A DNA stretch of 32,000 nt from NCBI RefSeq assembly GCF_000698785.1, contig NZ_CP007536.1, positions 150,001 through 182,000 on the forward strand. Direction: 5' to 3'. Below, in pieces: positions 3,373 to 18,214 of this stretch (positions are counted from its first letter, which is position 1; the number at the start of each line of letters is the position of its first letter). The position numbers and the translations under genes were made by a program. Under the pieces are notes generated by a model that saw nothing but the letters and a program-made list of their open reading frames with translations, was not told the DNA's origin and did no database searches. Origin of the DNA: Nitrososphaera viennensis EN76. GTDB lineage: Archaea; Thermoproteota; Nitrososphaeria; Nitrososphaerales; Nitrososphaeraceae.

Positions 3373-3610
3373 TTTCTATTCACCAAAACTCTTTTTTTGT
3401 TTCCCTTTTACGGCCTATATTTATATTTTATTCTAATATATAAACATTCTGGGGTCGCGGGGCTTTGTGCAAAAAGTCAGAAGTTGAGCGTGGGAATCTT
3501 GAACTTATGATACTGATTGAGCGTGGCTAAGTCACTTTTTAAACAAAGCCGGGGTCGCGGATACCGCGACAACACACACGCAAAAGCGCCCGCCCAGCTT
3601 GCATGTTGCA

Positions 3611-3660
3611 AGAAAAGCCGCGTACAGGCGCAAAGGTTGCAAATTGTGGAAACCTTGCGC
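3611..3660 (-). terminator. Hairpin plus T-tract directly downstream of the 34-aa basic-protein gene
   Basis: Arms gcgcaaaggtt (3628-3638) and aaccttgcgc (3651-3660) are complementary apart from one bulged A. The hairpin begins 6 nt after the stop codon. On the minus strand it is followed by cttttct (plus 3611-3617). Confidence 0.3.
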
Positions 3661-3666
3661 GCATGC

Positions 3667-3771
3667 TTACCTTGGCTTGTGGCGCTTGCGCCTTTCTGCC
3701 TTGGCATATTTCTTGCTGCCAGACCTCTGGGCGCTGTAGGCGTGCGTCTTGTTGTTCTCGCGTCTTGCCAT
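3667..3771 (-). CDS. Very small, highly basic protein (34 aa, MARRENNKTHAYSAQRSGSKKYAKAERRKRHKPR); possibly ribosome- or nucleic-acid-associated
   Basis: ATG at 3771 inside the 3667..3864 ORF. A TATA box (minus-strand aatatata, plus 3795-3802) is centred about 27 nt upstream of the ATG, which is leaderless spacing. Lys/Arg-rich composition. Family not recognised. Confidence 0.5.
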   Translation of the reverse strand: MARRENNKTHAYSAQRSGSKKYAKAERRKRHKPR

Positions 3772-3794
3772 GCCTGCACTTGCAATTGACGCGC

Positions 3795-3802
3795 TATATA
3801 TT
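3795..3802 (-). promoter_or_regulatory. TATA box (tatatatt / aatatata) in the divergent spacer between 3771 and 3859
   Basis: Near-palindromic TATATA core about 27 nt upstream of the minus-strand ATG at 3771. It could also serve the plus-strand gene at 3859. Confidence 0.45.
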
Positions 3803-3858
3803 CTATCTATCATCGTCTCCAGCAAAAACATAAATGGAATGATGCACGACGGAAAGCC

Positions 3859-4191
3859 ATGCAAGGCAACCGCGTTCCAAGGTGGCTTGTCGAAAGCGAC
3901 CCGTCGTGGGAAAAATCAATCGACTCTGATCTGGGCATGCTAAAGTGGACCAAAAAGGGCACCAACATCCAGGCAGTGTGCCCGCCGACAGGCATGTTCT
4001 GCGACATACTGGGTCAGGATAACAACGGCGTACAGGGCGGCCTTGCAGACCTAAGGGCAGGCATCGAGCGCATGAACAGGCAGCAGGCAAGCCCCGCCCA
4101 GGACATTTCAAAATACTTGTCCAGCCGCTACCTCAACCCGGGAATAAACGGGCCGGCGCGCTTTGACCTGAGAAGGACGCGCAAGTTCTAA
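3859..4191 (+). CDS. Hypothetical protein (110 aa; alternative ATG at 3937 gives 84 aa)
   Basis: This is the only long ORF in the interval and its composition looks coding. No motif recognised. Confidence 0.45.
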   Translation: MQGNRVPRWLVESDPSWEKSIDSDLGMLKWTKKGTNIQAVCPPTGMFCDILGQDNNGVQGGLADLRAGIERMNRQQASPAQDISKYLSSRYLNPGINGPARFDLRRTRKF

Positions 4192-4975: not shown

Positions 4976-5365
4976 ATGTCGGGCAGTAGCAGTGGCGGCA
5001 GCACCGCCCCTCCGCCAGAGAAAAAAACCCTGATGACGGAGTTTATCGACTTTCTAAAGACCTTCGGGGTGATAGGGCTTGCCATCGCGTTTGTAATCGG
5101 CGCTGCCGCGTCAAAGCTCGTGACTGCGTTTGTAAACGACATAATAACCCCGATAGTCGGGCTTGCGCTTCCGTCCGGCGACCTGAGGACACTGGCTTAC
5201 AACGTTACAAATACTGCTACTGGGGCGACGTCGAAATTCTCGTACGGAGACCTGATAGCAAACATCATAGACTTTCTCATCATTGCCTTCATAGTCTTTT
5301 TGATGTACAAGCTCCTCTCCCGGTACAAGGTGCTCGGGGTAGAGGACAAGACGAAAAAGACCTAA
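4976..5365 (+). CDS. mscL: Large-conductance mechanosensitive channel MscL
   Basis: TM1 motif GVIGLAIAFVIGAAASKLVTAFVNDIITPIVG. TM2 is IIDFLIIAFIVFLMYKLL. 129 aa. Confidence 0.9.
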   Translation: MSGSSSGGSTAPPPEKKTLMTEFIDFLKTFGVIGLAIAFVIGAAASKLVTAFVNDIITPIVGLALPSGDLRTLAYNVTNTATGATSKFSYGDLIANIIDFLIIAFIVFLMYKLLSRYKVLGVEDKTKKT

Positions 5366-6768
5366 GAGGGGAGCCTTGCAACAAACTGGCCGTGGCCGAG
5401 GGCGTCCTGCGCCACCTGGCCTGCTTCCATCACCACTCTTCCGCGCACCATCGTGAGCACCGGCCACCCCTTCAATCTCCAGCCGTCGTAGATGGTATAG
5501 TCAGAGTATGACTGCAACAGCTCTGGCGTCACCTTTTGCTCAAGGTCCATGTCGACCATCACTATGTCGGCGTCAGAGCCCTGCTGTATCGTGCCCTTTC
5601 TCGGGTACATGCCAAATATCCTTGCGGCGTTGTAACTCGTTATTTCTGCCACCCTTTCGATGCCTATCCTGTCGCCGTTGACGCCCCGGTCAAGGAGCAC
5701 GGGGAGCATGGTGGCAATGCCTGGAAAGCCGGCAAGAGCCGACCACAGGTCGCCGTTTCCCATCTTTATGTCAAGCCTGTTTGCCACGTGGTCCGTGCCC
5801 ACGGTGTCGATTATGCCGTTTCGAAGCGCCGACCAGACGCTCTGCACGTCGCTCTTTGAGCGTATGGGGGGCACCACCTTTCCTGTCATGCTTGCAAAGT
5901 CATAGGTGTGGGTGAGGTACTGCGGGCAGGTCTCGATGTAATAGTTGGCGTTTCCCTTTTGCCTCTCTGCAAGTATCGCGTCAAGCGCAGCGTTTGAGCC
6001 AATGTGCACAAAGTAGAGGTTTGCGCCAAACTTCCTGCCAAGGGCTGACACCTTGGCGACGCTTTCTGCCTCTGACTGCGCCGGCCTGCAGTCCGACCAC
6101 GCCTTCAAGCCCGTCATGCCCTTTTCCTTTCCGCGACGGATGTGCTCTGCGCACACTGCGGGGTTTTCCGCGTGCACGAGGATTGTCGAGTGCTCTTTTG
6201 CGCCGCCCTCGACTATGGCGGACAGGAGCGAGTCGTCCATGTTTACCTCGCCGTCCTTGACCCCGTGCTCGCCGGGCTCCAGGTCCATGTATATGTGGTT
6301 GAGGTCCGCCCCTAGGTTCATGTATATTTTCAGCGAATTGATGCCCTTTTTCTTCAGGTAGGGTATGTCCTTGACCTGCTCCTTTCTCAATATCGACGCG
6401 TGGATCGCATAGTCGATGCAGTGCGCGCCCCTGCTTGCCGCAAGCTGCCTTTCGACTGCGCGGTAGTCGCTGTCGTAGAGGCGCAGCATGCGCATCATGG
6501 TCGTGACGCCGCCGACTGCCGCCGAGCGCGACTCTGTACGCGCCGCTTCGTCAATCGGGGTGTAGACGCCATAGTGGACGTGCGGGTCTATTGCGCCTGG
6601 CAAAACATACTTGCCGGCCGCGTTTATCTTTCTCGATGCGCTTGCGTTCTGCGACGGCTTTAGCGTCTTTATCCTGCCGTCTTCAATGGCGATGTCGCAC
6701 TCGACGACTCCGACCTTGGGTATGACGGCCGACGCGTTTGTGACGAGTATGTCGCAAGAGTTTTCCAT
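5362..6768 (-). CDS. Cyclic amidohydrolase, D-hydantoinase/dihydropyrimidinase-like (metal-dependent amidohydrolase superfamily)
   Basis: 468 aa. Metal-ligand motif GAIDPHVHYG. Candidate carboxylated-Lys context SLKIYMNL. Also VHAENP, FVHIGS and GTDH. Its stop overlaps the mscL stop by 4 nt (convergent). The substrate cannot be assigned from sequence. Confidence 0.85.
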   Translation of the reverse strand: MENSCDILVTNASAVIPKVGVVECDIAIEDGRIKTLKPSQNASASRKINAAGKYVLPGAIDPHVHYGVYTPIDEAARTESRSAAVGGVTTMMRMLRLYDSDYRAVERQLAASRGAHCIDYAIHASILRKEQVKDIPYLKKKGINSLKIYMNLGADLNHIYMDLEPGEHGVKDGEVNMDDSLLSAIVEGGAKEHSTILVHAENPAVCAEHIRRGKEKGMTGLKAWSDCRPAQSEAESVAKVSALGRKFGANLYFVHIGSNAALDAILAERQKGNANYYIETCPQYLTHTYDFASMTGKVVPPIRSKSDVQSVWSALRNGIIDTVGTDHVANRLDIKMGNGDLWSALAGFPGIATMLPVLLDRGVNGDRIGIERVAEITSYNAARIFGMYPRKGTIQQGSDADIVMVDMDLEQKVTPELLQSYSDYTIYDGWRLKGWPVLTMVRGRVVMEAGQVAQDALGHGQFVARLPS

Positions 6769-6843
6769 TCCCGGTGCTCTCTGTGTCCGCTGACACCTGC
6801 GTGCACGTGCTCTTATGACTTTATCGTTCTTTTTACACTGATG

Positions 6844-6852
6844 TTTTATATT
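6844..6852 (+). promoter_or_regulatory. TATA box of tRNA-Ala
   Basis: ttttatatt is centred about 30 nt upstream of the tRNA 5' end. Confidence 0.45.
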
Positions 6853-6877
6853 CGGGCTGTTGTTGCATGTGGCTTGC

Positions 6878-6950
6878 GGGCTGGTAGTTCAGGGGTAGTA
6901 ATGCTCGCTTCGCAAGCGAGAGGTCGCGGGTTCAAATCCCGCCCAGTCCA
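6878..6950 (+). tRNA. tRNA-Ala (anticodon CGC), 73 nt, no intron, CCA not encoded
   Basis: Manual cloverleaf. Acceptor gggctgg/ccagtcc includes the Ala identity pair G3:U70. Anticodon stem ctcgc/gcgag with loop ttCGCaa. 5-nt variable loop. T arm gcggg-ttcaaat-cccgc. Discriminator A. The D stem is weak (3 bp). Confidence 0.9.
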
Positions 6951-6953
6951 TTA

Positions 6954-7004
6954 CTTACGCGGACTCGACTACTGACGCAATTTTACGTAGGGGGTCCGCG
7001 TAAG
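6954..7004 (+). repeat. 11-bp perfect inverted repeat (hairpin) abutting the tRNA 3' end
   Basis: cttacgcggac (6954-6964) and gtccgcgtaag (6994-7004) are exact reverse complements with a 29-nt loop. Confidence 0.8.
6956..6973 (+). repeat. Left terminal inverted repeat of the 6951-8421 segment
   Basis: tacgcggactcgactact compared with the reverse complement of 8394-8411 (tacgcggactcaaccact). 16/18 identical, with an 11-nt exact core. Confidence 0.6.
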
Positions 7005-7363
7005 ATGCCAACCAAGCTGTCAACCATCGTAGAAAAGTGCATAGAAGCGATTCGCAACAAGATCCTTTCTGGCTGCCAAAGCAAGGCATATTCGGGTGTT
7101 TAAAGTCGGAATATGAAGAAAAACACCCGCGCCCGATAATGGCACAGCACGAGCGCGGGATGTAATGACTCTTGGCCGTGGCTTACAACTTCGGGTGATC
7201 AGGGAAGCAGATTTTGTCTATTCCTCGGGGATTCTCACCCCATTATCAGACGACTTTGCTTAGCCTGACCCCGTCGTTAATGATGCTAGAAGCTTTGTAC
7301 TATATCAGAGAGGAGAACATCTTTAGGGAATTAAACGAGTATTTGCCTCATTAAACTGGTAGC

Positions 7364-7597
7364 TTGAAGAAGTGCAAAGTTAAGAATCTTGTAGAGGCTA
7401 ATTACGGTGATTCAGACATGTCCACCTGCGAAAAATGCACCTGCAAGACTGCTACGAGCTTGATGGAATATGAGGAAGGCGGCAAGAGGGCTTTTCGATA
7501 TAGCGGCAAGCTGTTTTGCCAGGAATGCTATCTCGAGATACTGCGAACCAACGAACCAAGGCAGGCAGAGATGCTGCTGTTACAACTGTCAAGCTAA
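7364..7597 (+). CDS. Small Zn-ribbon-like protein (77 aa from TTG 7364; 59 aa from ATG 7418)
   Basis: Cys pairs CEKCTC ... CQEC. Lies inside the tRNA-linked element. Confidence 0.4.
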   Translation: MKKCKVKNLVEANYGDSDMSTCEKCTCKTATSLMEYEEGGKRAFRYSGKLFCQECYLEILRTNEPRQAEMLLLQLSS

Positions 7598-7609
7598 AGA
7601 ATCAAGGGG

Positions 7610-7840
7610 ATGACGCGCGTCATACCCTCATTTTCCAGTATGACGCTGAAAACAGTAAGGGCAGGCATACGTCTGGACAGGGAAGGCATTGACTTTTTGA
7701 GAGGTCGACGTCTTTGGCAATACATCAGAAGGCGCAAGGTGGTGCATCAAATTTTGCAGACTCTGTGGCATTCAGGCCATCAAGAAGATAAAATCAAAAG
7801 TCTAAACCATCGAACCCTTTGCGAGCAACTTGGAGCATAG
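7610..7840 (+). CDS. Hypothetical basic protein (76 aa)
   Basis: ORF only. No motif. Lies within the element. Confidence 0.3.
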   Translation: MTRVIPSFSSMTLKTVRAGIRLDREGIDFLRGRRLWQYIRRRKVVHQILQTLWHSGHQEDKIKSLNHRTLCEQLGA

Positions 7841-7867
7841 ACTAAAGAAGCAGGCCTCATACTGCTT

Positions 7868-8002
7868 CTAAAGATGCACATCTCCATGATGTTTGGCCTT
7901 GTTCTTGTGCCTTTCAAGTGACTCTTTGGTGGTAAATGTCATTTTGCATATCTTGCATCTGAAGCCTTGTGAATCCTTCGCGCGATTAAACGGATTTTTC
8001 AT
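7868..8002 (-). CDS. 44-aa single C2H2 zinc-finger protein (not in the ORF track)
   Basis: Hand translation: MKNPFNRAKDSQGFRCKICKMTFTTKESLERHKNKAKHHGDVHL. It fits F-x-C-x2-C-x3-F-x5-L-x2-H-x5-H exactly. Confidence 0.55.
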   Translation of the reverse strand: MKNPFNRAKDSQGFRCKICKMTFTTKESLERHKNKAKHHGDVHL

Positions 8003-8092
8003 GATCAGGAGTGCTGATTGGCAGTGGTTATAAAAGATCACTTAACCATGTTAAGTCAGGCGCCCAGTGGCTATATCTCACACTCAATCAAG

Positions 8093-8293
8093 TTAATCTT
8101 TCGTCTCTCTTGACACCTTTACTACTTTACAATACGATAGAAATCCTTTCTACGTCCACATCCATTCTGGCGAGTCACCGGGCTGTAGGCGCGGGGCATG
8201 AACAATTTCCATAGGAATAGAGGCTGAAAGGGTGTTTCCATCTGGCCTGTCCCGCACCTTGGACCTCGGAGAAAGATACTTTGGCTTAGTCAT
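8093..8293 (-). pseudogene. AbrB/SpoVT-like (swapped-hairpin) small DNA-binding ORF interrupted by an in-frame TAG at 8150-8152
   Basis: Hand translation: MTKPKYLSPRSKVRDRPDGNTLSASIPMEIVHAPRLQPGDSPEWMWT*KGFLSYCKVVKVSRETKD*. The segment SASIPMEIV...LQPGDSPEW resembles the AbrB/MazE/VapB core (v-t-I-P-k-e-i-r...l-k-p-G-D-k-v-e). It could instead be an intact 47-aa product. Confidence 0.35.
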
Positions 8294-8393
8294 GTAATAC
8301 ACTGTAAAATTGAAAACAACGTTATGTATTACACAGAAGTATCACATTGCGGTCAAAAATGACTCCAACAACACTTCAATGTCAAATAAAAGA

Positions 8394-8411
8394 AGTGGTT
8401 GAGTCCGCGTA
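8394..8411 (-). repeat. Right terminal inverted repeat of the 6951-8421 segment
   Basis: agtggttgagtccgcgta is the reverse complement of tacgcggactcaaccact. It pairs with 6956-6973. Confidence 0.6.
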
Positions 8412-8421
8412 CACGCCATAC

Positions 8422-8440
8422 TCAAATCCCGCCCAGTCCA
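8422..8440 (+). repeat. att-like direct repeat 1: exact copy of tRNA-Ala nt 55-73
   Basis: tcaaatcccgcccagtcca is identical to 6932-6950. Confidence 0.85.
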
Positions 8441-8501
8441 CTTCGACGTTGCGGAGGTTGCCAGCATCTTTTGAATGCGATTCGCCTAGTTAAATATCAT
8501 T

Positions 8502-8756
8502 TTAGGCACGTGCGTTTTCCCTAACGGGAAATGTTGTCTTTTGCCTGCTTGTCAATCTTTTGTGCAAATCATAAAGGCTAGAAAGGAATATTGTAAGTGC
8601 CCCAAATATTACAATAAGTTGATTGCCCTCCATGTGGGCAAACAATGTGATTCCTAACATGCAACTAGCGTAAAACACGCCGGCACTCCATTTATGAATT
8701 AAGAAATGGCCAAGGCCCGGGAATGTGACTCCCCAAAAATATGCAATATTTGGCAT
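8502..8756 (-). CDS. Small membrane protein (84 aa from ATG 8756; the ORF extends to GTG 8843)
   Basis: Hydrophobic segments WGVTFPGLGHFLI, AGVFYASCMLGITLFA and LIVIFGALTIFLSSL. Confidence 0.4.
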   Translation of the reverse strand: MPNIAYFWGVTFPGLGHFLIHKWSAGVFYASCMLGITLFAHMEGNQLIVIFGALTIFLSSLYDLHKRLTSRQKTTFPVRENARA

Positions 8757-8896
8757 TTGGAGAGTTCTCGCACACGAGTCAAAAGAATACGAGCATGTAA
8801 ACGAGTTTACAGATGCCCGCGGTGAAAATCCAAGAAACCACAAACAGAATAATGCCCGGAATAATGGCTAAGCACCGATTTTAAGACTGGACATTA

Positions 8897-8919
8897 CGGG
8901 TTCAAATCCAGCCCAGTCC
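8897..8919 (+). repeat. att-like direct repeat 2: copy of tRNA-Ala nt 50-72 with one mismatch
   Basis: cgggttcaaatccAgcccagtcc compared with 6927-6949 cgggttcaaatcccgcccagtcc. It lies 2 nt from the stop of the 8922..9263 ORF. Confidence 0.8.
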
Positions 8920-8921
8920 GC

Positions 8922-9263
8922 TCACTTTCTACGCTGCTGCATTTGCTGTTGTGCTTTTTTGAATTCCAGTATGATGCCTCTCTTTGCGTCCACGCCAAAT
9001 GAAAGCAATTCTCCAGTTTCTAGCGGGATGGATTCTACAACCACGCCACATGAAGGGCAACGCAGGTCATCTATGGATTCTGTGATTGATGATGCACACC
9101 AATAGCAAGAATTGCACAGCAGGAAACTAGCAGCACTGGACCTGCCCGAGGGTCTCTGCCCCTCTGTCCTTGATAGCTGCTGTTCTCCCAAGTTGCCCAT
9201 AGGGAATTCGCCAGTAGGGGATAGCACTATAAGAATATTCTGCAATTGCAGTTGATTGCTCAA
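8922..9263 (-). CDS. Zn-ribbon protein (113 aa from TTG 9263; 92 aa from ATG 9200)
   Basis: CNSCYWC ... CPSCG cysteine pairs. Gln-rich basic tail. Confidence 0.45.
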   Translation of the reverse strand: MSNQLQLQNILIVLSPTGEFPMGNLGEQQLSRTEGQRPSGRSSAASFLLCNSCYWCASSITESIDDLRCPSCGVVVESIPLETGELLSFGVDAKRGIILEFKKAQQQMQQRRK

Positions 9264-9333
9264 TAAAATTTTCTTTTTTGGTTAAAACCTAGCCTCAATA
9301 TCCTGATTTAACAAGGGAACTGATGCCGATGGT

Positions 9334-9350
9334 GCGAATCCTCCAGTCCA
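9334..9350 (+). repeat. Possible degenerate third copy of the tRNA 3' end
   Basis: gcgaatcctccagtcca. The last 8 nt (ccagtcca) match 6943-6950 exactly, and gaatcc resembles the T-loop aaatcc. An indel and mismatches lie between. Weak. Confidence 0.25.
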
Positions 9351-9353
9351 TTT

Positions 9354-9614
9354 GTGGTCTACTGCCGTAAATCTGCCATGCCCGAAAGCGCGGCCACATC
9401 TCTATTAGACAGAATATCCAATCAAGATGTCATGGTGGAAACAAAAAAGTTGCTTCTTGAGGCTGAAATCCTAATTGACGTGCCCAAAGATATCGTCGAG
9501 GATGAGGAAAGACTGGATGATGTCACACAAGGACTAGGCAAGGCTCTCACCAAGGGGCTCTACGACCAAGGAATAGACTTTCAGGTTAGCCGGCTAAGCT
9601 TTAGGCTGAAATAA
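9354..9614 (+). CDS. Hypothetical acidic protein (86 aa; ATG at 9378 is an alternative)
   Basis: ORF only. Confidence 0.35.
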   Translation: MVYCRKSAMPESAATSLLDRISNQDVMVETKKLLLEAEILIDVPKDIVEDEERLDDVTQGLGKALTKGLYDQGIDFQVSRLSFRLK

Positions 9615-9766
9615 AATAAGGTGTCGCCGAGCCGTCATTATTGATTGCGCGGCTGACCTAAAGCGCGATAAAACCTCCTCAATAATGTGTGTGTATATCC
9701 TAAAATGCCATGCCGTAATGGTTTCGTTTATGTAGATTGATCGCGTATTAATAATACAGATGCAAC

Positions 9767-10072
9767 ATGGGGGCGGTTTTCAGGCCCGGAGATATAACAA
9801 AGGGTCGCAAAAGCATCATACAGAATGCCCTGAAAGACACCCATCCAGATATTAGAAAACAGATCCTGGACCTACTCAGCTCCTGGGAGGGGACGAAATC
9901 GGAAGAAAAACTGATGGTGATGATGGGAAAGGAGAAAGCTGAAACATTCCTCAAAGAGATCTCCAAGCAAGAAGAAAAGAGGGATAATAGCGTTAACGAT
10001 AAAGTGCAAATTACAAGGGCAGGAATGCCTGCGGAAGAGGAGGAAGAAGAAAGAGCCGCGAAAAAGGATTAA
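9767..10072 (+). CDS. Hypothetical protein with a Glu/Lys-rich tail (101 aa)
   Basis: ATG start. Charged, low-complexity C-terminus. No motif. Confidence 0.4.
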   Translation: MGAVFRPGDITKGRKSIIQNALKDTHPDIRKQILDLLSSWEGTKSEEKLMVMMGKEKAETFLKEISKQEEKRDNSVNDKVQITRAGMPAEEEEEERAAKKD

Positions 10073-10665
10073 ACACTTGGAATAGAAGGTCAAGTGCGCC
10101 AAAATGGTAATAGCTGTTGTTGGCTATAGTCTAATGCGACAGAAAAAGAGATCATGCGCTTTTCTAGATGTTCGTGCAGTAGAGTCGAAGAAGCGTTCCT
10201 GCGCATAATTAACAAGATATCATAATCAACAATAAAACAAAGGAGAGGATTATTTTGGAATCAGCCGCCGTCATCCTTTACAAGACCGGCTGCCTGAAAG
10301 AAGCTGGTCAGTGCGTGGACATCGTTTATCTTGTAATAGTTTTGCATCGCGCTAATCATTGCATTATCGTAGTATAGGCGTCGTGACATCTGCATTGGTA
10401 TCTACAGAACTATTGGTGTTAAGCGTACTTGTCAAAAGTGATCAGAGCAAACAGCCAACGATGTAACGCTGTCGCAGAATCCGGTATATTCTTTCAGGTT
10501 CTTGGCCGGCCCGTCAAAATTGAGTCATTGTCGAATCGATGCTGCAGCCATTATTCTTCAGATAACAAATCGCCTTGACAAACTGACAGTCAATGGTACG
10601 CAAGTTACCTGTGCCCCAAAACTTTTGAAATAACTCATTTTACCCACTTTGACGTAGACGATGTG

Positions 10666-11079
10666 ATGCAGGAAGACCGAAGCCCCGATGGCTCTGAAAA
10701 GCAGGAAGGTGAATTCATATGCGTTGCCACTTTTCTTCCGCTAAAAAGCTGGAAGTACATGCTGCCTTTTCAGCTAATGACGTCAAAAGTGTTGAAACAG
10801 GCAAAGAAAAGCAAAGGGATGGTCAACTATGCCGTCAAGGCTAATTTTCCAAAGAAGCATTTCTGGACACTATCAATCTGGAAAGACCAGGATTCGTTCA
10901 GGAACTTTGTCATGGCAGAGCCGCATGCCACTGCCATTGCAAAATTCAGCAGATGGGCCGGCGATGGTTCAGCGTTTGTGGAATGGGCAAGTTCAGACGG
11001 CTCTATCGACTGGGCGGAGGCCCTGAAGAGGCTGCAGAGCCCTACTTTTTACTATGGCAATAAAAACACTGGTGCCTGA
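10666..11079 (+). CDS. Small alpha/beta protein, possibly of the DUF3291/ABM-like dimeric barrel type
   Basis: 137 aa from ATG 10666 (the ORF track starts at GTG 10663). The family call rests only on weak recollection of FLPLKSW...NYAVKA...FWTLSIWKD...F patterns. Confidence 0.55.
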   Translation: MQEDRSPDGSEKQEGEFICVATFLPLKSWKYMLPFQLMTSKVLKQAKKSKGMVNYAVKANFPKKHFWTLSIWKDQDSFRNFVMAEPHATAIAKFSRWAGDGSAFVEWASSDGSIDWAEALKRLQSPTFYYGNKNTGA

Positions 11080-11205
11080 ACGGTTACGTCAAACTGTCGC
11101 CGGATCTGGTTGCGCCTCTCTGCCGCCAAATATTTTTTCCACCTGGGGATTCTTGCCGGCCCTCCTTTTTGCCTGTACGATAGGTTGCTACATGTTCTCT
11201 GCTGT

Positions 11206-12234
11206 CTAGTTGCCAAAGCTCAGCCGGAATGAGGGGACGACGATCGTATTGGCCAGAGGCGCTATGATGTCTGAAACGGTGCTGTTGTTGTCAACGGCCG
11301 GAGGAGGCGTCTGTGCGTCGACCGTGCTGGAAAACGTCCCTATGTGGTAGCCCTGGTCATTGATCCATGTTATAAGGGCATCGAGATCGTCTATCTCTGT
11401 CTGTGAGATGGCTTCGGTGGGGTTGTTGTTTGCGTCCTTTACCGTGAAATCCTGCGGGTGGAGCGTTACCACCGCATAGCCATAGCTGGCAATGGTGCTG
11501 TCTATCTGGCTTTCAATCCTGGTCAGGGGCGTCTTTGTCGGCGGCTCTGAATCGTAGGTGTAAAAGCCTATTGCCTGCGGAAGGTGGTACACGCCGTACT
11601 GGTCCTTGAGGTCAGAGCCGGCGGCCGCCTTGTAGATCTTGTTGTCCGGGCTGTCGGGCTCGTCAGGGTCGTATATGCTGCCCATCTCTTCATCAAACTC
11701 GGAGCTCAAGATCGTTAGGCCCGCTTGGCTGGCTGCCTCGAGGGTGTCGTCGTTGTACGCATTGTACGGGGCCACAAATATTCTGGTCTTGCTTCCAAAC
11801 AGCTCCTCCATTTTCTGGTTGGCCGTTTCCAGGGTCTCCTGCTGTTCCTTCAATGGAAGCGTCCGGTAATCCACGTGGTTCCATCCGTGCAGGGACGTTT
11901 CAATCAGGCCTGTCGCAATGCTTTCCCTTACCTTGCCGACTATGGCGGGATCGTTTCCGATATGGTTCATTATTATCGCCAGGTCAAGGCTCTCGTTTCT
12001 TTCCACGACCTTGTCGATAACTGCGGACTGGACGGTGACGAGCCAAAAGTCCTGGACGTCATCCAGCCGAAATATCACGCAATTGCAGGCGTCAGTCAGG
12101 GCATGCGCCTTTGTCGGCAACATAATGTTGTTGCCGCCGGCGGCGGCCGCTAGTAGTAACATTGCTGCTGCTATTATGGCAAAATAAACAAGATGATGCT
12201 TTGGCAGCCTCGTTGTACTGAAGTGCGGGTTCAC
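11206..12234 (-). CDS. Secreted or membrane-anchored polysaccharide deacetylase (NodB/CE4-like)
   Basis: 342 aa. N-terminal signal anchor LVYFAIIAAAMLLLAAAA. FRLDDV (Asp-Asp) and SLHGWNHVDY (His-x-x-His-like) motifs. GTG start. TATA-like catatagtt lies about 26 nt upstream. Confidence 0.8.
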   Translation of the reverse strand: MNPHFSTTRLPKHHLVYFAIIAAAMLLLAAAAGGNNIMLPTKAHALTDACNCVIFRLDDVQDFWLVTVQSAVIDKVVERNESLDLAIIMNHIGNDPAIVGKVRESIATGLIETSLHGWNHVDYRTLPLKEQQETLETANQKMEELFGSKTRIFVAPYNAYNDDTLEAASQAGLTILSSEFDEEMGSIYDPDEPDSPDNKIYKAAAGSDLKDQYGVYHLPQAIGFYTYDSEPPTKTPLTRIESQIDSTIASYGYAVVTLHPQDFTVKDANNNPTEAISQTEIDDLDALITWINDQGYHIGTFSSTVDAQTPPPAVDNNSTVSDIIAPLANTIVVPSFRLSFGN

Positions 12235-12575
12235 CGCCAGATGTACGAAGAATTAACTATATGTCAGAGATGACCAATTTGCAGTGCTCATAGATTTTCT
12301 ATATAACGATATTCATTGCCGCAGTGAGTTTTCTTGTTCAGACGATATAAATCGCAAAAGTTAGTATCAGCTTTGCTAGAGAGGGCGCCTCTGCTTAAAA
12401 GTCCTAGTGGAAACAGTGCCGGGACATCATGACCTTGCCCGGCGCCGCCCGCAGCCAGCTCTTGTGAATTTAACCAGAAAGATCCACAGTATGGAACAGA
12501 GTAGTAGTCTCCTAGAATATTTCTCTGATTTTCTAATATGGGTACTCATTTAAATGACTAATTCCTATAATCCTT

Positions 12576-12851
12576 GTGAAATACAGAAGCAGGATGGACA
12601 TCGCCGCTGACGTGCTTGAAGTTGCACAGGGCGGCGCGATAAAGACGAGGATAATGTACAAGGCCTTCCTGTCGTTCCCGCAGCTTAAGGAATACCTTGA
12701 GCTTTTGCAGGGCGGCGGGCTCCTTGACTATGTGGCCGAGGAAAAAGAGTACCGTGCCACAGAGCGTGGAAAACGCTTTTTGAAAATGTACAAGGAGGTA
12801 GGGCAGGCTATACTCCCTGCAGGGCTCAAGAAGAAAAAGATGCTGGCCTAG
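12576..12851 (+). CDS. Small winged-helix DNA-binding protein (HTH_45-like)
   Basis: 91 aa. IAADVLEVAQGGAIKTRIMYKAFLSFPQLKEYLELLQGGGLLDY...YRATERGKRFLKMY fits the archaeal wHTH pattern. GTG at 12576 or ATG at 12594. Confidence 0.7.
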   Translation: MKYRSRMDIAADVLEVAQGGAIKTRIMYKAFLSFPQLKEYLELLQGGGLLDYVAEEKEYRATERGKRFLKMYKEVGQAILPAGLKKKKMLA

Positions 12852-13205
12852 GGAAAAAACTCGCGGTCAAAGGTCAGAGGCGTGCTTGATGGCAGCAGGC
12901 ACATACAGGCCACTCTCCTGCCTGCGAGGGTTAAGGGCGGCTGCCTACCGTACACACACGCGATATGTCCGGAATAGAATGATGATGATAATACTATGAT
13001 GAACTGAAATCGCTCATGCGTTCAGGCAATCGCTAAATCGTGCCCTTGCAGAATCGCTTGACAATTACACAACCTGACGGCTTGTCCCGCACTTTTTGCG
13101 TATGAGAGCTGATGGGCAGAAAAGAAAGGAAAAAAGAAAAAGTGGTAGTGTGGCAGCGTGTGACTGCCACATCATCATATGCCTGCAGTTTTTTGTCTCT
13201 ACTTT

Positions 13206-14114
13206 TTACGGAGGCGTTCTTGGAAGCGTTGTTGGAGCTGTGGTTACGTTGAGCGTAGCTGAAGCTTCGACGCCGCTGTCGTCCGTCGCAGTGATCTGGT
13301 GGTCGCCAACTGTCGTGTCCGCCGGGATGACCACAGCTACGGTGAATGCTCCACTGGCGTCAGTTGTTATGGTCGAATTTGTGTCAAGCGGATTGCCGTC
13401 AATCGACAGTGTCACATTCTGGTTATCGCCAAAGCCCGAGCCGGTAATGAGAAGTTCGCTTCCTGCATTGACTGACGTCGGCGTCAGGAAAAGTGATGCG
13501 ATGCCAATTCCCGGAGTGGACGTTGCGTTTCCGGGTGTCGTTGCAGTTTCGTTGCCAAGTGGCACAGGTAAGGTCTCGTTGCCTGGTGGCACTGCTGATG
13601 ATGTCGCGTTGCCCGATTCTTCAACAGTGAACGTGGCAGTTGCGCTTTCTCCCGAGCTGCCTGTCGCCTTTACTTCGTGGTCTCCGATCGTTGCGTTATC
13701 TGGTATGAGTGCTGTTGTAGAGAATTCACCCGTGGCAAACTGTATCATGTTCCCTGTCAAGATGTAATTGTCGTCAAACGTAAATCCAAATGTCTGCCCC
13801 GCTGAGAATCCGGTTCCATCGATAGTAACGTTGCTGCCCGCTCCGCCAGAAGTTGGCGTCAGGGTGATCGATCCTGCTGCTGTTGTTGATGATGATGTTT
13901 CGTTACCTGGTGGCACTGTAGATGATGTCTCGTTACCTAACGACATTGTAGAAGTTTCGTTGCCTGGCGGCGTTACCGTCGTTTCGTTGCCCTGTAGGAT
14001 CTGTGCTGCGGCGTTGCCTGCTACCAATCCTGGCGCCGCGATTGTGCCCAAGATTGCCAGACCGACTATGGCAGCCAGTACTGTTGTGTGTCTTCTTGTT
14101 GTTGTTTCAAACAT
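13206..14114 (-). CDS. Secreted surface glycoprotein candidate: two IPT/TIG-like Ig domains, each preceded by a GNET/GNAT sequon-repeat linker
   Basis: 302 aa. N-terminus TTRRHTTVLAAIVGLAILGTIAAPGLVAGNAAA (signal, possibly Tat-like RR). Eight G-N-(E/A)-T sequons. Two domains: ITLTPTSGGAGSNVTIDGTGFSAGQ... and LFLTPTSVNAGSELLITGSGFGDNQ... Confidence 0.8.
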   Translation of the reverse strand: MFETTTRRHTTVLAAIVGLAILGTIAAPGLVAGNAAAQILQGNETTVTPPGNETSTMSLGNETSSTVPPGNETSSSTTAAGSITLTPTSGGAGSNVTIDGTGFSAGQTFGFTFDDNYILTGNMIQFATGEFSTTALIPDNATIGDHEVKATGSSGESATATFTVEESGNATSSAVPPGNETLPVPLGNETATTPGNATSTPGIGIASLFLTPTSVNAGSELLITGSGFGDNQNVTLSIDGNPLDTNSTITTDASGAFTVAVVIPADTTVGDHQITATDDSGVEASATLNVTTAPTTLPRTPP

Positions 14115-14586
14115 GTGCGTTCAAGTAAATTTTACACACGCACAAGTTAAGGGACTCTGCGGATAGGTGTTTCCAACTAACCTACTGTGCGGCACGCACA
14201 AAAAAATCATCTTGTTTCAACGAACAAGTGCTGTGTTGTGATCCGGCTATTGATTGCATGCTAGAGTTCCATCCAGTCAGGAGATTCACGTATCTTCATC
14301 AGAGTTTACTGTTACAGGAATGATAGCAGTACGGCAAACAGTGCTTGTTTTTTATCGTATTTGAATCTGTGCGCGGCTTCTAGTGTCTCTTATTTTCATC
14401 ACGTCATGTGGCATCGTCGCCGGACAGACACTGCATATCCTGATTATTTTCTGTCGCGGCACTGTTGCTATCTTGTCGAGCAAGTTCCTGCAGGCATAAT
14501 CTTTCGGATATAGCCCACGTTGACTGTGCGTTTATGCAGGGCGCCATGTCTGGCGTTAGTCAACGCATTTCCTGCATGCTGTATTT

Positions 14587-15042
14587 TCAGATTCTTTTCC
14601 ATCTGGCATATCTTCTTGATGCCAGAGCTTTCAAATCCGTTTCCCCTTTCACTTTGCTTCCCGCAGGGCGAGTGGCATCGATGTGCTGAGCTGGAACCTT
14701 CTTTTCCCTTACTGCTGCAGCCGCCGCTTGCCTTCTTTTTGTTGTTTCCTCATAAATCCATATCAGGGTAGATAGCGTGTATACCGGGATAAAGTCTCCG
14801 ATCACAGGAATAAATTCAAGCGCGTTAATCACGGCAGCCTTTTTGCTCTTTGTTATTGAATACAGTACCATGCTGACAAAAGCATCGGTGACATCGCCGA
14901 TCAATGGGGTGGCAAAGAGGGGCGCTGCAACATAGTCCAATACATCTGCAACGACCGAGATTCCAAGCGCGGCAGCCGCCCTCAATCTAAATGGAATCAT
15001 CATCCTGCTGTCTAGCCTGGATATTTTTTCTCTGCCCTGCAT
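14587..15042 (-). CDS. Small membrane protein with a duplicated P-(L/V)-I-G-D motif (DUF1232/DUF4112-like flavour)
   Basis: 151 aa. TPLIGDVTDAFVSMVLY and FIPVIGDFIPVYTLSTLIWIY. Basic C-terminal tail. Lies 147 nt downstream of the patatin gene on the same strand. Confidence 0.6.
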   Translation of the reverse strand: MQGREKISRLDSRMMIPFRLRAAAALGISVVADVLDYVAAPLFATPLIGDVTDAFVSMVLYSITKSKKAAVINALEFIPVIGDFIPVYTLSTLIWIYEETTKRRQAAAAAVREKKVPAQHIDATRPAGSKVKGETDLKALASRRYARWKRI

Positions 15043-15189
15043 TTTTTTCTGTGGTTACTTTTACGTGCAGGGTGCCTATAAGCATATCACTAGCGATATT
15101 AATTTCTTGAGATGTACCCGCTGCCAAAATGCACAAATTCCAATAGAAATTAAAAAGAACAAAAGGATACTCGCTTATTGCCGTCATAA

Positions 15190-16833
15190 TCATACGTATC
15201 GCAATGCGTCTGAATATCCCTTCTCCATCAGTTGCGTGATTGTGTCCGACGAGAAATCAAAGGCTTTGCCGTATATGTCGTTTTTATCGTCAGCTGCAAG
15301 TTCTATTCTTACCACCTTTTCCACGTCGAATCTGCCTCCAAGCAGGTCGCCGTATTTTCTGTCCCTCCCGTCGCGTTTCTTGCTCTTTGCGTCTGCAGCC
15401 CCTAAAAAGTTGCGAATTTCTGTCTCGACCGCATCCTTGCTCCTTGCCTGCTCGATTGCTATTTTGATCAGCTTGTTGGCCAGATCGATGTAATCTGTCA
15501 CAAGGTTTGCAATCTTTTGGTCGTACTTTGTCTTGTCATGGTACAGGATGTCGCCCACTCTGTTCTGTATGCCGTCTGGATCTTTTGGAAAATCGTCTTT
15601 TTCCACAGTCGGGTACAGATCGACAATATACACTTCCAGATCCGGGACCGTTGTTGCAGCTCTTGCTTCTTTTGCTTTTGACATCGCGGCAGCCGCGGTT
15701 AAGGATGCCGTGTTGCTGTGGTTCCTTATTTTGTGCCAGTAATCTCGATGAGCCTGCAACACCTCCCTTAACGGCGTGTTGCTGAGGTAAAAGCCGTCCC
15801 AAAAGTACCTTGTCTCCTTCTTTAAAGTGTCTGCCTTGTTCTGTTCTTCTGTTATCGTGGTTGCCTCGAGATCTGGCGGCCTGTACCTCAGGTGCGATGA
15901 CATGCTCGTCAGCAAATGGTCAATCGAAAGGCCTTGCCCATACTCTATTACGTGCCTGTCCCTTCGCCTGCCGTCTCCTCCAACTGTTTCGTGAGCATAC
16001 TCTGTTTTCCACACGCCGTTTTCCTTCTCATAGCTATCAAACGTCGCCGTGATGGCGTCTTTCACGTCCACGCTCACAAAAAGAAGCCTCGGCTCATTTT
16101 TGTCGTAGCTGGTCTTTATTGGACGCTTTTCGTAATCCCAGTACTTTTTTATCGCCATTGCCAGCGGCGCGTTGCCGTAGCGGACAAGATAGTTGTATGG
16201 ATTGTGGAACCTAAAGTCTGGCTGTATTATCCCCGGGGACAAGACATTCGGCGTTCCCAAGGAAGTAAATGCAAACTGGTACCACGACCAGTAGCGCCTG
16301 AAAGCTTCTTCTGAAGCCAGAGGGCCGAGGTTGTCTGGCCATAGAAAGTAATACGACAGAAACGGCCATTCCTCTCTTGTGCTGGTCGCCGCTTGCAGGT
16401 TTGGCAGTACAAACCTGCCAAAAAAGTCAGCCTGAAATTTCCTCGCGTTTTCCCAAAACTGCCAGCCCCTGCTGAGCCACTTGCTATCCGGCCAGAATAT
16501 CGGCGTGGAAACATCCCGCCAGAAATTGCAGAGCATATCTGAAGCCCCCTCCCACCTTCTCTTCCTGATGACATAGTCTACAATGAGGGCCGCATTGATG
16601 GCCCCTGCCGACGCGCCTGCGACGATGTCAAACAGGTTTCCTTGCTGCCTGCCGTCCCGTCTGTTGCTGTCGTCGTCCAGCGGCGACAATTTTTCTGACA
16701 ATGCCTTGAAAACGCCTGCCTCATACGCACCGAGAGCCCCGCCGCCTTGGAGGATCAGGGCCCTCTGCTTTCTAGGAACGTTATTGTTGCCCGCGTTTTC
16801 CTGCGTGTTGGCCTGACTCTTTTCTGGCTGCAT
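15190..16833 (-). CDS. Patatin-like phospholipase with DUF3734-like C-terminus
   Basis: 547 aa. Oxyanion motif ILQGGGALGAYEAG. Nucleophile elbow G-A-S75-A-G. Catalytic Asp motif FWD346GFYLSNTPL. C-terminal AFDFSSDTITQLMEKGYSDA. Confidence 0.9.
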   Translation of the reverse strand: MQPEKSQANTQENAGNNNVPRKQRALILQGGGALGAYEAGVFKALSEKLSPLDDDSNRRDGRQQGNLFDIVAGASAGAINAALIVDYVIRKRRWEGASDMLCNFWRDVSTPIFWPDSKWLSRGWQFWENARKFQADFFGRFVLPNLQAATSTREEWPFLSYYFLWPDNLGPLASEEAFRRYWSWYQFAFTSLGTPNVLSPGIIQPDFRFHNPYNYLVRYGNAPLAMAIKKYWDYEKRPIKTSYDKNEPRLLFVSVDVKDAITATFDSYEKENGVWKTEYAHETVGGDGRRRDRHVIEYGQGLSIDHLLTSMSSHLRYRPPDLEATTITEEQNKADTLKKETRYFWDGFYLSNTPLREVLQAHRDYWHKIRNHSNTASLTAAAAMSKAKEARAATTVPDLEVYIVDLYPTVEKDDFPKDPDGIQNRVGDILYHDKTKYDQKIANLVTDYIDLANKLIKIAIEQARSKDAVETEIRNFLGAADAKSKKRDGRDRKYGDLLGGRFDVEKVVRIELAADDKNDIYGKAFDFSSDTITQLMEKGYSDALRYV

Positions 16834-16860
16834 GCGTGTTCTTGCTTTTTATTCTGGATC

Positions 16861-16870
16861 GATATATTTT
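16861..16870 (-). promoter_or_regulatory. TATA box of the patatin gene
   Basis: Minus-strand aaaatatatc is centred about 32 nt upstream of the ATG at 16833. Confidence 0.4.
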
Positions 16871-17076
16871 AGATAACCGGTAATAACCAACCATCCGCCC
16901 GCCCGCTAACAATATAGCAAAGACACGGCCAGCGACACAAAATACAAGATGTCCTCCTCGTTTTTGCGGTCGGTCTATTTTTTACTTGCCGCCCCGCAGT
17001 ACTGATCGGTGTTCTCGTAAATGCTCCTATAATCTCGCAGAGAAATCCATAATACAAACGAAATCCCCACGCTTAT

Positions 17077-18126: not shown

Positions 18127-18214
18127 ACTAGATCATAGTTCATTATGGCAGATCGTGACTCATAAAGGCTGTCAATGCATATTCTTTCCTGCCCTCTGCT
18201 AGCCTGCTTGCCGA

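What the first reader, a model, noticed from the sequence alone, without database searches (positions are those of the whole stretch)
6927..9350. Serial copies of the tRNA-Ala 3' end mark a stack of integration events at one tRNA hotspot
The last 19 nt of tRNA-Ala (6932-6950, tcaaatcccgcccagtcca) recur exactly at 8422-8440. A 23-nt stretch of T-arm and acceptor (6927-6949) recurs at 8897-8919 with one mismatch. A degenerate third copy may sit at 9334-9350. All copies share the tRNA orientation.

Site-specific integration of archaeal viruses and plasmids into tRNA genes duplicates the tRNA 3' end as attL/attR. Repeated integration into the regenerated tRNA pushes older att copies downstream.

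The intervals here are only about 1.47, 0.46 and 0.41 kb, and none encodes an integrase. They are therefore either heavily deleted remnants or non-autonomous elements mobilised in trans. The tract is visibly AT-richer than its flanks. My spot counts were 25/60 G+C on the line starting at 8041 and 40/60 on the line starting at 5401.
Basis: partly seen in the sequence, partly recalled or inferred. Interest (0 to 1): 0.72.

Follow-up and report, generated by a model that had tools for sequence, protein, structure and literature searches.

The report
Decayed mobile-element stack at tRNA-Ala
Two short leftovers of integrated mobile elements sit one behind the other after a tRNA-Ala gene in a soil ammonia-oxidising archaeon (Nitrososphaera), each ending in a copy of the tRNA's tail; this is a clear example of a well-known process, not a new kind of system.

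Summary
The core observation holds. The last 19 nt of tRNA-Ala(CGC) (6932-6950) recur exactly at 8422-8440. A 23-nt version recurs at 8897-8919 with one mismatch. All copies are on the + strand; 0.02 such matches are expected by chance. The proposed fourth copy (9334-9350) scores no better than shuffled sequence and is dropped.

- The closest relative (L001, about 88% nt identity) joins its tRNA directly to the ortholog of window 8920-9286. Modules A (6951-8440) and B (8441-8919) are therefore an insertion polymorphism that breaks at the att copies.
- Module A starts with a short 5' relic of a tyrosine integrase gene (7005-7103). It belongs to a family with more than 1,500 hits, from Nitrososphaeraceae where named.
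- Module A keeps a 14-bp inverted repeat inside each att copy.
- Intact integrases of three families sit at this same tRNA in other Nitrososphaera genomes and metagenomes.
- Of 24 loci with the same upstream flank, the downstream flanks fall into 15 alleles.

So the tract holds two stacked, heavily deleted integrative-element remnants at a real hotspot. It is a new example, at a tRNA target absent from what I could search of the 2019 thaumarchaeal survey's supplements. Interest is modest.

The parts
6878..6950 (+). Intact tRNA-Ala(CGC), the integration target. Its last 19 nt (6932-6950) serve as attL of module A.
   Evidence: ARAGORN. Rfam RF00005, 60 bits. The same tRNA lies next to the same amidohydrolase gene in L001-L005.
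6951..8421 (+). Module A: the youngest remnant, from an integrative element of the F1 integrase type. About 1.47 kb, 45-46% G+C. It has three small ORFs: 7364-7597 (+), 7610-7840 (+) and 7868-8041 (-). The third is a C2H2 zinc finger. The two + strand ORFs have no detectable relatives; 7868-8041 was not in that search.
   Evidence: Absent from L001. Pfam zf-C2H2 and zf-met hits for 7868-8041. No homologs in 5.8 billion proteins for 7364-7597 and 7610-7840. No match in phage or plasmid records.
6954..7004 (+). Left-arm hairpin between the att core and the integrase start codon. It contains the left copy of the terminal inverted repeat, TACGCGGACTCGAC, at 6956-6969.
   Evidence: Folds with a 13-bp stem, dG -14.5 kcal/mol, z = -4.5, 0 of 200 shuffles as good. 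The 11-mer occurs 3 times, 0.22 expected. Other F1 elements have the same layout: core, GGRYTCRA motif, inverted repeat, integrase ATG.
7005..7103 (+). Integrase pseudogene relic. It is a 32-codon ORF, MPTKLSTIVEKCIEAIRNKILSG..., of which only the first 12-20 codons are integrase-derived.
   Evidence: Matches the family N-terminus MP[TSA]KL[ST]T..xKI. It is the top hit of an F1 profile, aligned to profile positions 1-20. The motif is present in 74 of 120 family members and occurs once in the window, at 7005, with 0.004 expected. L005 has the intact 453-aa gene in the same position and orientation.
8398..8411 (-). Right-arm copy of the terminal inverted repeat. GTTGAGTCCGCGTA is the reverse complement of 6956-6969, matching 13 of 14 positions. 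It lies 10 nt inside the att copy.
   Evidence: The 24 nt before the att copy in L028 are similar.
8422..8440 (+). att copy 2. It is attR of module A and was the tRNA 3' end (attL of module B) before A arrived. Exact 19 of 19.
   Evidence: The same 19-nt block is duplicated in L028.
8441..8896 (+). Module B: an older remnant of about 0.46 kb and roughly 43-44% G+C. It holds one orphan ORF (8502-8843, - strand, 113 aa, hydrophobic) and no integrase debris.
   Evidence: Absent from L001. No homologs. No F1 profile hit. One gene caller calls an 84-aa version in L009.
8897..8919 (+). att copy 3, attR of module B: the displaced older tRNA 3' end. 22 of 23 identical (C to A at 8910); position 8920 is G where the tRNA has A.
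   Evidence: The DNA to its right is orthologous to the DNA directly after the L001 tRNA.
8920..9350 (.). Segment C: the tRNA-proximal DNA of the pre-insertion allele. It holds a small Zn-ribbon ORF on the - strand (8922-9263; the likely start gives 8922-9200). It may be an older element remnant or native DNA; this is undecided. The claimed att copy at 9334-9350 is not supported.
   Evidence: 86% identical to L001 4060-4441, with a partial paralog at L001 3373-3489. Weak constraint: 9 synonymous against 14 non-synonymous changed codons. Its left end resembles the flanks of L013 and L042. Copy 4 scores at chance level.
9351..11200 (.). Rest of the AT-rich variable island. It is a mosaic of small genes, some shared with L001 and L002 (9432-9614 +, 10261-10395 -) and some specific to the window (9767-10072 +, 10663-11079 +, DUF3291-like). 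The conserved backbone resumes at the polysaccharide deacetylase gene (11206-12234, - strand).
   Evidence: G+C profile. Patchy homology and changed segment order in L001 and L002. ORF 9432-9614 is under purifying selection: 17 synonymous against 6 non-synonymous codons, with 19 of 26 differences at third positions. Pfam.

Best explanation
The tract is a two-layer stack of decayed integrative elements at the 3' end of tRNA-Ala(CGC).

Proposed sequence of events (inferred):
1. An element (B) carrying a copy of the tRNA's T-arm and acceptor end recombined with the tRNA gene through a tyrosine recombinase.
2. That rebuilt an intact tRNA from element DNA and pushed the original tRNA tail downstream, where it is now copy 3 (8897-8919).
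3. A second element (A), of the F1 integrase family common in Nitrososphaeraceae, integrated into the rebuilt tRNA through a 19-nt identity block that starts in the T-loop. This pushed the previous tail to 8422-8440.
4. Both elements then lost almost everything by internal deletion. A kept its two arms (14-bp inverted repeats) and the first 12-20 codons of its integrase. B kept about 0.46 kb.
5. Without an integrase the remnants cannot move by themselves. They are identical in all sampled genomes of this species.

Shown directly: the repeats, the empty-site allele, the integrase relic, the arm repeats, and use of the same tRNA by intact elements elsewhere.

Inferred: the order of events, that there were two events rather than one, and that the arm repeats bind integrase.
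For: 1. Repeats are far above chance and co-oriented with the tRNA.
2. Empty site: L001's tRNA joins directly to the ortholog of window 8920-9286, and the two homology blocks overlap by exactly the tRNA tail.
3. Integrase relic at 7005: its start codon lies 55 nt after the att core and it reads away from the tRNA, as does the intact 453-aa gene of L005/L006 (phrog_1 integrase, E = 1.5e-12). The first 24 nt of element DNA are also shared with L005.
4. Arms: TACGCGGACTCGAC at 6956-6969 has its reverse complement at 8398-8411. A third copy forms a hairpin that ends at the integrase ATG. The same layout is seen in F1 elements at tRNA-Ala (L054, L062) and tRNA-Met (L060).
5. Hotspot: three integrase families lie next to this tRNA: F1, F2 (L004, with a restriction-modification pair) and F3 (PF16795). 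Among 24 loci with one upstream allele there are 15 downstream alleles.
6. Independent stacks occur in L028 (exact 19-nt copy after 1.9 kb with no integrase, followed by an L015-type left end) and L059.
7. Independent N-terminal integrase relics occur in L036 and L050.
8. G+C is 43-46% against 52-58% in the upstream flank.
9. Tandem re-use of att sites by tyrosine-recombinase elements, and tRNA 3'-end targeting in Thaumarchaeota, are established (PMC6563490).
Against: - No allele with B but without A was found, so two separate events are not proven.
- The direction of change cannot be polarised: insertion in this lineage or precise loss in L001 are both possible.
- The integrase relic is short. 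HMMER alone rates it marginal (E about 0.2-0.5 in a 4.3-kb search space).
- No intact F1 element with both att ends was recovered, so A's right arm could be compared only with L028.
- B carries no feature that ties it to any element family.
- All sampled contigs of this species are identical over 6801-11400, so there is no sign of current mobility.
Confidence: 0.82

Rival explanations
1. A single integration. A and B entered together as one composite of about 1.97 kb, or as the remnant of one larger element, through the 23-nt att (tRNA and copy 3). Copy 2 would then be an internal att picked up when that composite formed in an earlier host.
For: L001 lacks A and B together, and no intermediate allele (tRNA, then B, then C) was found among 64 loci. 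A and B have similar G+C.
Against: A's right-arm inverted repeat lies immediately before copy 2, which marks 8421/8440 as a true element end. L028 shows that the 19-nt block alone bounds a module. Even this scenario needs an earlier stacking event elsewhere.
Confidence: 0.1
2. Module A, and perhaps B, is a non-autonomous miniature integrative element. It would still be excised and re-integrated by an F1 integrase supplied in trans from elsewhere in the genome or from an incoming element.
For: A keeps perfect att copies (19 of 19), both arm repeats and the hairpin. The F1 integrase family has more than 1,500 hits, from Nitrososphaeraceae where the source names an organism.
Against: No second copy of A or B was found in the window, in the other fetched loci, or in phage or plasmid records. 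The ORFs searched (two of A's three, and B's) are orphans. A begins with a truncated integrase gene, which marks a deletion derivative rather than a streamlined mini-element. All sampled contigs of the species carry the identical arrangement. No F1 integrase is encoded in the 32-kb window.
Confidence: 0.07
3. The repeats are not mobile-element scars. They would be chance matches, local duplications of the tRNA end by slippage or unequal crossing-over, or parts of a structured RNA.
For: None beyond the small size of the intervals.
Against: Chance expectation is 0.02. A and B are unrelated to each other and to the flanks, are AT-rich, and A carries an integrase relic. Rfam finds only the tRNA. 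The tract is absent from the nearest relative.
Confidence: 0.01

Closest known systems
Cryptic integrated elements of Thaumarchaeota (Krupovic et al. 2019, PMC6563490)
   Same: Tyrosine-recombinase elements inserted at the 3'-distal part of tRNA genes and flanked by short direct repeats (10-19 nt in their table). Soil Nitrososphaera hosts. Sizes go down to 2.6 kb (NitUzo-E2: an integrase plus three small genes), similar to the L005/L006 element. Arrays formed by re-using one att site are explicitly noted.
   Different: These modules lack an integrase and are far smaller (1.49 and 0.48 kb) than any element in that survey, which required an integrase. The term 'Ala' does not occur in the supplementary files held (file 1 is truncated). 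The five N. viennensis EN76 elements whose coordinates were fetched all lie between about 259 kb and 2.44 Mb, at tRNA-Arg, tRNA-Phe and non-tRNA sites.
Non-partitioning (pNOB8-type) archaeal tyrosine recombinase integration, as opposed to SSV-type
   Same: In the intact relatives (L005, L062, L004) the integrase gene is whole and lies beside attL. The att core lies outside the gene, in the tRNA 3' end.
   Different: Here the integrase is destroyed by deletion, not split by integration. The family name rests on my own knowledge and on reviews (PMC8371274), not on a phylogeny made here.
tRNA-linked arrays of integrase fragments and element remnants in Sulfolobales and other archaeal genomes, and tandem prophage or island arrays at bacterial tRNA and tmRNA genes
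   Same: Serial displaced tRNA 3' ends downstream of an intact tRNA, with progressively degraded elements between them.
   Different: A different host lineage and different integrase families. This comparison is from my own knowledge, not from a tool result.
T-loop class of tRNA integration sites (Williams 2002 classification, cited in PMC6563490)
   Same: The 19-nt identity block starts inside the T-loop (TCAAAT...) and runs to the tRNA 3' end. This is what is expected when crossover occurs in the T-loop, flanked by the symmetric T-stem.
   Different: The crossover position itself was not determined here.

Membership tests
tRNA-targeting integrative element bounded by attL/attR (tyrosine recombinase type) | Direct repeats identical to the tRNA 3' part, in the tRNA's orientation, one within an intact tRNA | tested here: met
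   19 of 19 at 8422-8440 and 22 of 23 at 8897-8919, all on the + strand. The tRNA is intact.
tRNA-targeting integrative element bounded by attL/attR (tyrosine recombinase type) | Presence/absence polymorphism whose breakpoints coincide with the att copies | tested here: met
   L001 lacks 6951-8896. Its tRNA is joined to the ortholog of 8920-9286.
tRNA-targeting integrative element bounded by attL/attR (tyrosine recombinase type) | Encodes its own integrase next to an att site | tested here: not met
   Only a 5' relic of 12-20 codons at 7005. There is no catalytic-domain debris in 6951-11300. The modules are therefore remnants, not functional members.
tRNA-targeting integrative element bounded by attL/attR (tyrosine recombinase type) | The same att site is used by intact integrase-bearing elements in related genomes | tested here: met
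   F1: L005/L006, L054, L062. F2: L004. F3: L015, L027, L033, L047, L055, L057.
tRNA-targeting integrative element bounded by attL/attR (tyrosine recombinase type) | Excision gives a circular attP junction and restores attB | not testable with these tools
   This needs raw reads or PCR.
SSV-type (self-partitioning) integrase elements | The att core lies inside the integrase ORF, so int(N) and int(C) fragments flank the integrated element | tested here: not met
   The core ends 55 nt upstream of the integrase start codon. No C-terminal integrase fragment lies at the other end. Relatives have unsplit integrases.
Non-autonomous miniature elements mobilised in trans | Several near-identical copies, or occurrence at different sites or hosts, with conserved ends | tested here: inconclusive
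   The ends are conserved, but no other copy was found in the window, in the other fetched loci, or in phage or plasmid collections. The rest of the genome could not be searched.
Structured non-coding RNA | Match to a known family, or conservation with covariation | tested here: not met
   Rfam at E <= 1 finds only the tRNA. The tract is absent from the nearest relative.

The most novel reading that the evidence does not exclude
Module A may not be dead. With perfect att copies, both arm repeats and the regulatory hairpin intact, it could be a miniature integrative element that an F1 integrase moves in trans.

More broadly, the recurrent tiny att-bounded modules at this tRNA (window A and B, L028, L059) and the repeated breaks right at the T-arm-like arm motif (L028 and L045 both diverge from L054 after GGGTTC) could mean that the integrase itself makes the deletions. 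It would do so by recombining the core with T-arm-mimicking arm sites. That would be a programmed route from full element to integrase-less stub.
Probability: 0.08. Interest if true: 0.55.

Novelty: new member of a known kind. Interest (0 to 1): 0.3.

Why it matters
This is a textbook-quality record of how archaeal genomes accumulate and erode mobile DNA at a tRNA gene. It has base-precise boundaries and an empty-site allele.

Its practical value is for annotation. Gene callers leave 6951-9377 empty. The tRNA-Ala(CGC) site, the 19-nt core and the GGRYTCRA arm motif can be used to find F1-type elements in Nitrososphaera genomes. The F1 family has more than 1,500 hits and no Pfam match.

It does not open a new question. 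Integration at tRNA 3' ends, tandem re-use of att sites and decay of proviruses are all established.

Tried and rejected
- Fourth att copy (9334-9350): rejected; alignment score is at chance level and there is no matching break in L001 or L002.
- Structured RNA: rejected.
- Pfam on the putative integrases of L005 and L004 gave nothing at E < 0.01. PHROGs and archaeal-virus records identified them. A PDB sequence search was uninformative.
- tblastn of the whole integrases against the window missed the short relic. A family profile and a motif count were needed.
- Viral-contig scans with the F1 integrase and with the attL signature: no hits.
- First metagenome scan with the attL signature: no hits. 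L006's own contig, which has this signature, was not returned either.
- One joined query of four small ORFs from A, B and C against 5.8 billion proteins: no hits. The query format was validated locally, where it found the L001 ortholog and paralog of ORF C.
- Search for the right-hand att of intact elements (L004, L006, L060, L062): none within the DNA available. L006 has only an inverted T-arm-like fragment 2.56 kb downstream, which I could not interpret.
- Search for an allele with B but not A: none among the loci.
- DNA search of 6951-8920 against phage and plasmid records: no match.
- Looking up CP104300 in the literature: nothing. The species name of the window's source therefore remains unconfirmed.
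Full report
**Observation.** ARAGORN finds one tRNA in the window, tRNA-Ala(CGC) at 6878-6950 on the + strand. Rfam confirms it at 60 bits and finds no other RNA family in 6000-13000, even at E <= 1.

The last 19 nt, TCAAATCCCGCCCAGTCCA, recur exactly at 8422-8440. With two mismatches they recur at 8902-8920. The expectation from shuffles is 0.02 matches. The repeat finder extends the third copy to 23 nt (8897-8919), 22 of 23 identical to 6927-6949. All copies are on the + strand. Start-to-start spacings are 1490 and 480 nt.

In a gapped local alignment of the tRNA's last 30 nt, copies 3 and 2 score 41 and 38. The proposed copy at 9334-9350 scores 18. That equals seven unrelated positions in the window and lies within the best scores of shuffled windows, 18-28. 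I therefore drop the fourth copy.

The composition claim holds. Every 500-nt bin from 7001 to 11000 has 42.6-46.2% G+C, against 52-58% upstream.

**Source and relatives.** An exact-protein lookup places the window in NCBI record CP104300.1, a 2.52-Mb chromosome. Two further contigs are 100% identical over 6801-11400. The flanking amidohydrolase (5362-6768, - strand) retrieved five Nitrososphaera genomes at 81-94% protein identity. All have tRNA-Ala(CGC) beside that gene.

**Empty site.** In the closest relative, L001, homology with the window runs through the tRNA (L001 4417-7765 to window 6952-3557). It then jumps: L001 4060-4441 matches window 9286-8898 at 86%. The two blocks overlap by the 25 nt of tRNA tail.

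The alignment shows that the DNA after window copy 3 (GCTCACTTTCTACGCTGC...TTTTTTGAATTCC) is the ortholog of the DNA directly after the L001 tRNA (TTCTCTTTCTATGCTAC...TTTTTTGAATTCC). So window 6951-8896 is an insertion/deletion polymorphism whose ends coincide with the att copies.

L002 carries about 2 kb of unrelated DNA at the same place: a metallo-beta-lactamase-fold gene and a DUF3006 gene. L003-L005 differ completely.

**Module A is a gutted F1-type element.** L005, and the longer L006 from the same population, have a 453-aa ORF that starts 145 nt after the tRNA and reads away from it. Pfam misses it. PHROGs calls it an integrase (phrog_1, E = 1.5e-12). It is 21-26% identical to integrases annotated in archaeal virus records.

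It belongs to a family with more than 1,500 hits in the protein collection. Those that carry an organism name come from Nitrososphaeraceae, and many are labelled XerD. I call this family F1.

The window and L005 share the first 24 nt after the tRNA (TTACyTTAnCGGACTCrACyACTG). At 7005 the window has ATG followed by MPTKLSTIVEKC..., and the ORF stops after 32 codons. The family N-terminus is MP[TSA]KL[ST]T..xKI.

A profile built from 92 full-length members has its best hit in the six-frame translation of 6951-11300 exactly here, aligned to profile positions 1-20. It finds no catalytic-domain debris anywhere in the island. The hit is too short for a good HMMER score. However, the motif [MLV]P[TSAV]KL[ST]T is present in 74 of 120 members and occurs once in the whole window, at 7005, with 0.004 expected.

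**Element ends.** TACGCGGACTC occurs three times, with 0.22 expected: at 6956-6966 (+), 8401-8411 (-), and 6992-7002 (-, one mismatch). Extended, the left arm 6956-6969 and the right arm 8398-8411 are reverse complements at 13 of 14 positions.

The two left copies form a 13-bp hairpin that ends at the integrase ATG (dG -14.5 kcal/mol, z = -4.5). The same plan appears in other F1 elements at tRNA-Ala (L054, L062) and at tRNA-Met (L060). The plan is: att core, 5-10 nt, a GGRYTCRA motif that resembles the tRNA T-arm, an inverted repeat, then the integrase start. The 24 nt before the att copy of L028 resemble A's right arm.

I infer, without a test, that these motifs are integrase binding sites. 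A thus has both authentic ends and a deleted interior.

**Interior ORFs and module B.** A's three small ORFs include a C2H2 zinc finger (7868-8041, - strand). Its two + strand ORFs and the single ORF of module B have no relatives in 5.8 billion proteins; the zinc-finger ORF was not part of that query. The joined query behaves correctly in a local test. Gene callers leave 6951-9377 empty in the public records, apart from one call for the B ORF. Module B (8441-8896) has no feature that assigns it to a family.

**Hotspot.** A scan of metagenome contigs with the tRNA's 3' half gave 50 more loci. Integrases next to the tRNA fall into three families:
- F1: L005/L006, L054 and L062. In L062 the integrase heads an element longer than 11 kb with a family-B DNA polymerase, ParB and a methylase, in the same synteny as the window.
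- F2: L004, which also carries a BsaWI-like endonuclease and an N6/N4 methylase.
- F3: about 385 aa, Pfam PF16795 'Archaeal phage integrase' and phrog_5127. Found in L015, L026, L027, L033, L047, L055 and L057.

L036 and L050 keep only the first roughly 70 codons of an F1 integrase. These are independent relics like the window's.

As a control for ordinary divergence, I clustered both flanks of the same 39 loci by the same rule. There are 13 upstream clusters, the largest with 24 loci, against 23 downstream clusters. Those 24 loci with one upstream allele carry 15 different downstream alleles.

**Other stacks.** L028 has an exact copy of the same 19-nt core 1.9 kb after its tRNA, with no integrase between. 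After the copy comes the tRNA-proximal flank of L015, an F3 element. L059 has 34 nt of an L027-type left end, then GCCCAGTCC, then an L021-type left end. Stacking followed by severe erosion is therefore recurrent at this tRNA.

**The rest of the island.** Segment C (8920-9350) is the tRNA-proximal DNA of the L001 allele. Its Zn-ribbon ORF has an intact ortholog and a partial paralog in L001 but shows weak constraint (9 synonymous against 14 non-synonymous codons). Its left end resembles the flanks of L013 and L042. I cannot say whether C is native or an older remnant.

Further on, ORF 9432-9614 is under purifying selection (17 synonymous against 6 non-synonymous codons, 19 of 26 differences at third positions), and 10261-10395 is conserved in L001 and L002. 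In contrast, 9617-10218 and 10503-11239 are specific to the window, and the segment order differs in L001. The backbone shared with L001 and L002 resumes at the polysaccharide deacetylase gene, from about 11240-11317.

**Mechanism.** The best-supported reading is two successive site-specific integrations into the tRNA 3' end, each regenerating the tRNA and displacing the previous tail, followed by internal deletions. The order, A after B, follows from position. It fits the exact copy 2 against the mismatched copy 3, although with so few bases that gradient is weak evidence.

Not shown:
- that A and B arrived separately, since no allele with B alone was found;
- whether L001 is ancestral or has lost the pair;
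- the family of B;
- any present mobility.

**Comparison with what is known.** Krupovic et al. 2019 (PMC6563490) catalogued 74 integrated elements in 20 thaumarchaeal genomes. Of these, 39 are in tRNA genes, typically recombining with the 3'-distal part, with att repeats of about 10-19 nt. The paper notes that tyrosine-recombinase elements form arrays by re-using one site. Its smallest element is 2.6 kb.

The term 'Ala' does not occur in the supplementary files held, one of which is truncated. The five N. viennensis EN76 elements whose coordinates were fetched are at tRNA-Arg, tRNA-Phe and non-tRNA sites.

The present case is thus a further example of a known kind. It is integrase-less, so it falls below that survey's detection rule, and it sits at a tRNA not found in the parts of that survey I could search. 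It is not the SSV type, because the core lies upstream of the integrase gene and relatives have unsplit integrases.

**Verdict.** Novelty: new member of a known kind. Interest is about 0.3. The locus is well resolved and useful for annotation, but it would not surprise a specialist.

Noticed in passing
L062:9835-21392: In another Nitrososphaera genome with the same synteny, this tRNA-Ala carries an intact F1 integrase followed by an element longer than 11 kb. That element encodes a 1156-aa family-B DNA polymerase, a ParB-like protein and an N6/N4 methylase. It could be a provirus or a self-replicating element.
   Followed up: partly
L006:12370-12390 (= L005:710-730): An inverted, partial copy of the tRNA T-arm (TCGAGGGTTCAAATCCCACCC, closer to the L001/L003 tRNA variant) lies 2.56 kb downstream of the tRNA, just beyond the integrase and a DUF6788 gene. 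No direct att copy was found within 7 kb. Its meaning is unclear; it could be the element's end, an inversion, or a fragment of another att.
   Followed up: partly
L059 (first 80 nt after the tRNA); L028 and L045 (first 20 nt after the tRNA): There are extremely reduced modules. L059 has only 34 nt of an F3-type left end before a 9-nt att remnant and another element's left end. L028 and L045 share 16 nt with the L054 F1 left end and both diverge right after GGGTTC, inside the T-arm-like arm motif. This hints at a preferred breakpoint.
   Followed up: partly
window 6980-6985, 8467-8476, 8958-8969; L001, L015, L042 flanks: A T-run, often ...TTTTGAAT(T/G)C, lies 30-45 nt after the tRNA end and after each displaced att copy, in several unrelated flanks. 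Elements may supply a terminator or 3' trailer for the tRNA they rebuild, or these left ends may share ancestry.
   Followed up: no
L036 and L050 (56-300 nt after the tRNA): Two independent loci keep F1 integrase relics that both stop being homologous at about residue 70-72. After that point an unrelated reading frame continues.
   Followed up: no
L010, L012, L041, L051: Several metagenome contigs end within 1-11 nt of the tRNA's 3' end, as expected if assemblies break where the population is heterogeneous.
   Followed up: no
L011, L017, L022, L023, L038, L039, L043 (first 2 kb after the tRNA): A recurrent downstream allele has a conserved 110-117-aa ORF on the opposite strand ending about 35 nt from the tRNA, then a Ser/Thr-kinase-like gene. 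Its first 30 nt carry an F1-like arm motif (TTCGGAGTCAAC and variants).
   Followed up: no
window 13206-14114 (-): A 302-aa secreted-looking protein is full of GNET(S/T) repeats (N-glycosylation-type sequons). The internal DNA repeats are 13540-13613 and 13891-13971.
   Followed up: no
window 7868-8041 (-), 17842-18126 (-), 19967-20257 (+): There are three small C2H2-type zinc-finger ORFs in one 32-kb window. One lies inside module A; the other two have the motif by eye only.
   Followed up: no
window 12001-21500: G+C stays patchy (44-55%) well beyond the island. L003 shares only window 25577-25981 downstream of its tRNA, so the variable region in this genus may be much larger than the att-bounded part.
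   Followed up: no
L001:3373-3489 and 3591-3886: L001 has a second, partial copy of the Zn-ribbon ORF of segment C. It also has the homolog of window 10219-10502 placed before, not after, the homolog of 9373-9616. This is a local rearrangement or a further insertion in that genome.
   Followed up: partly
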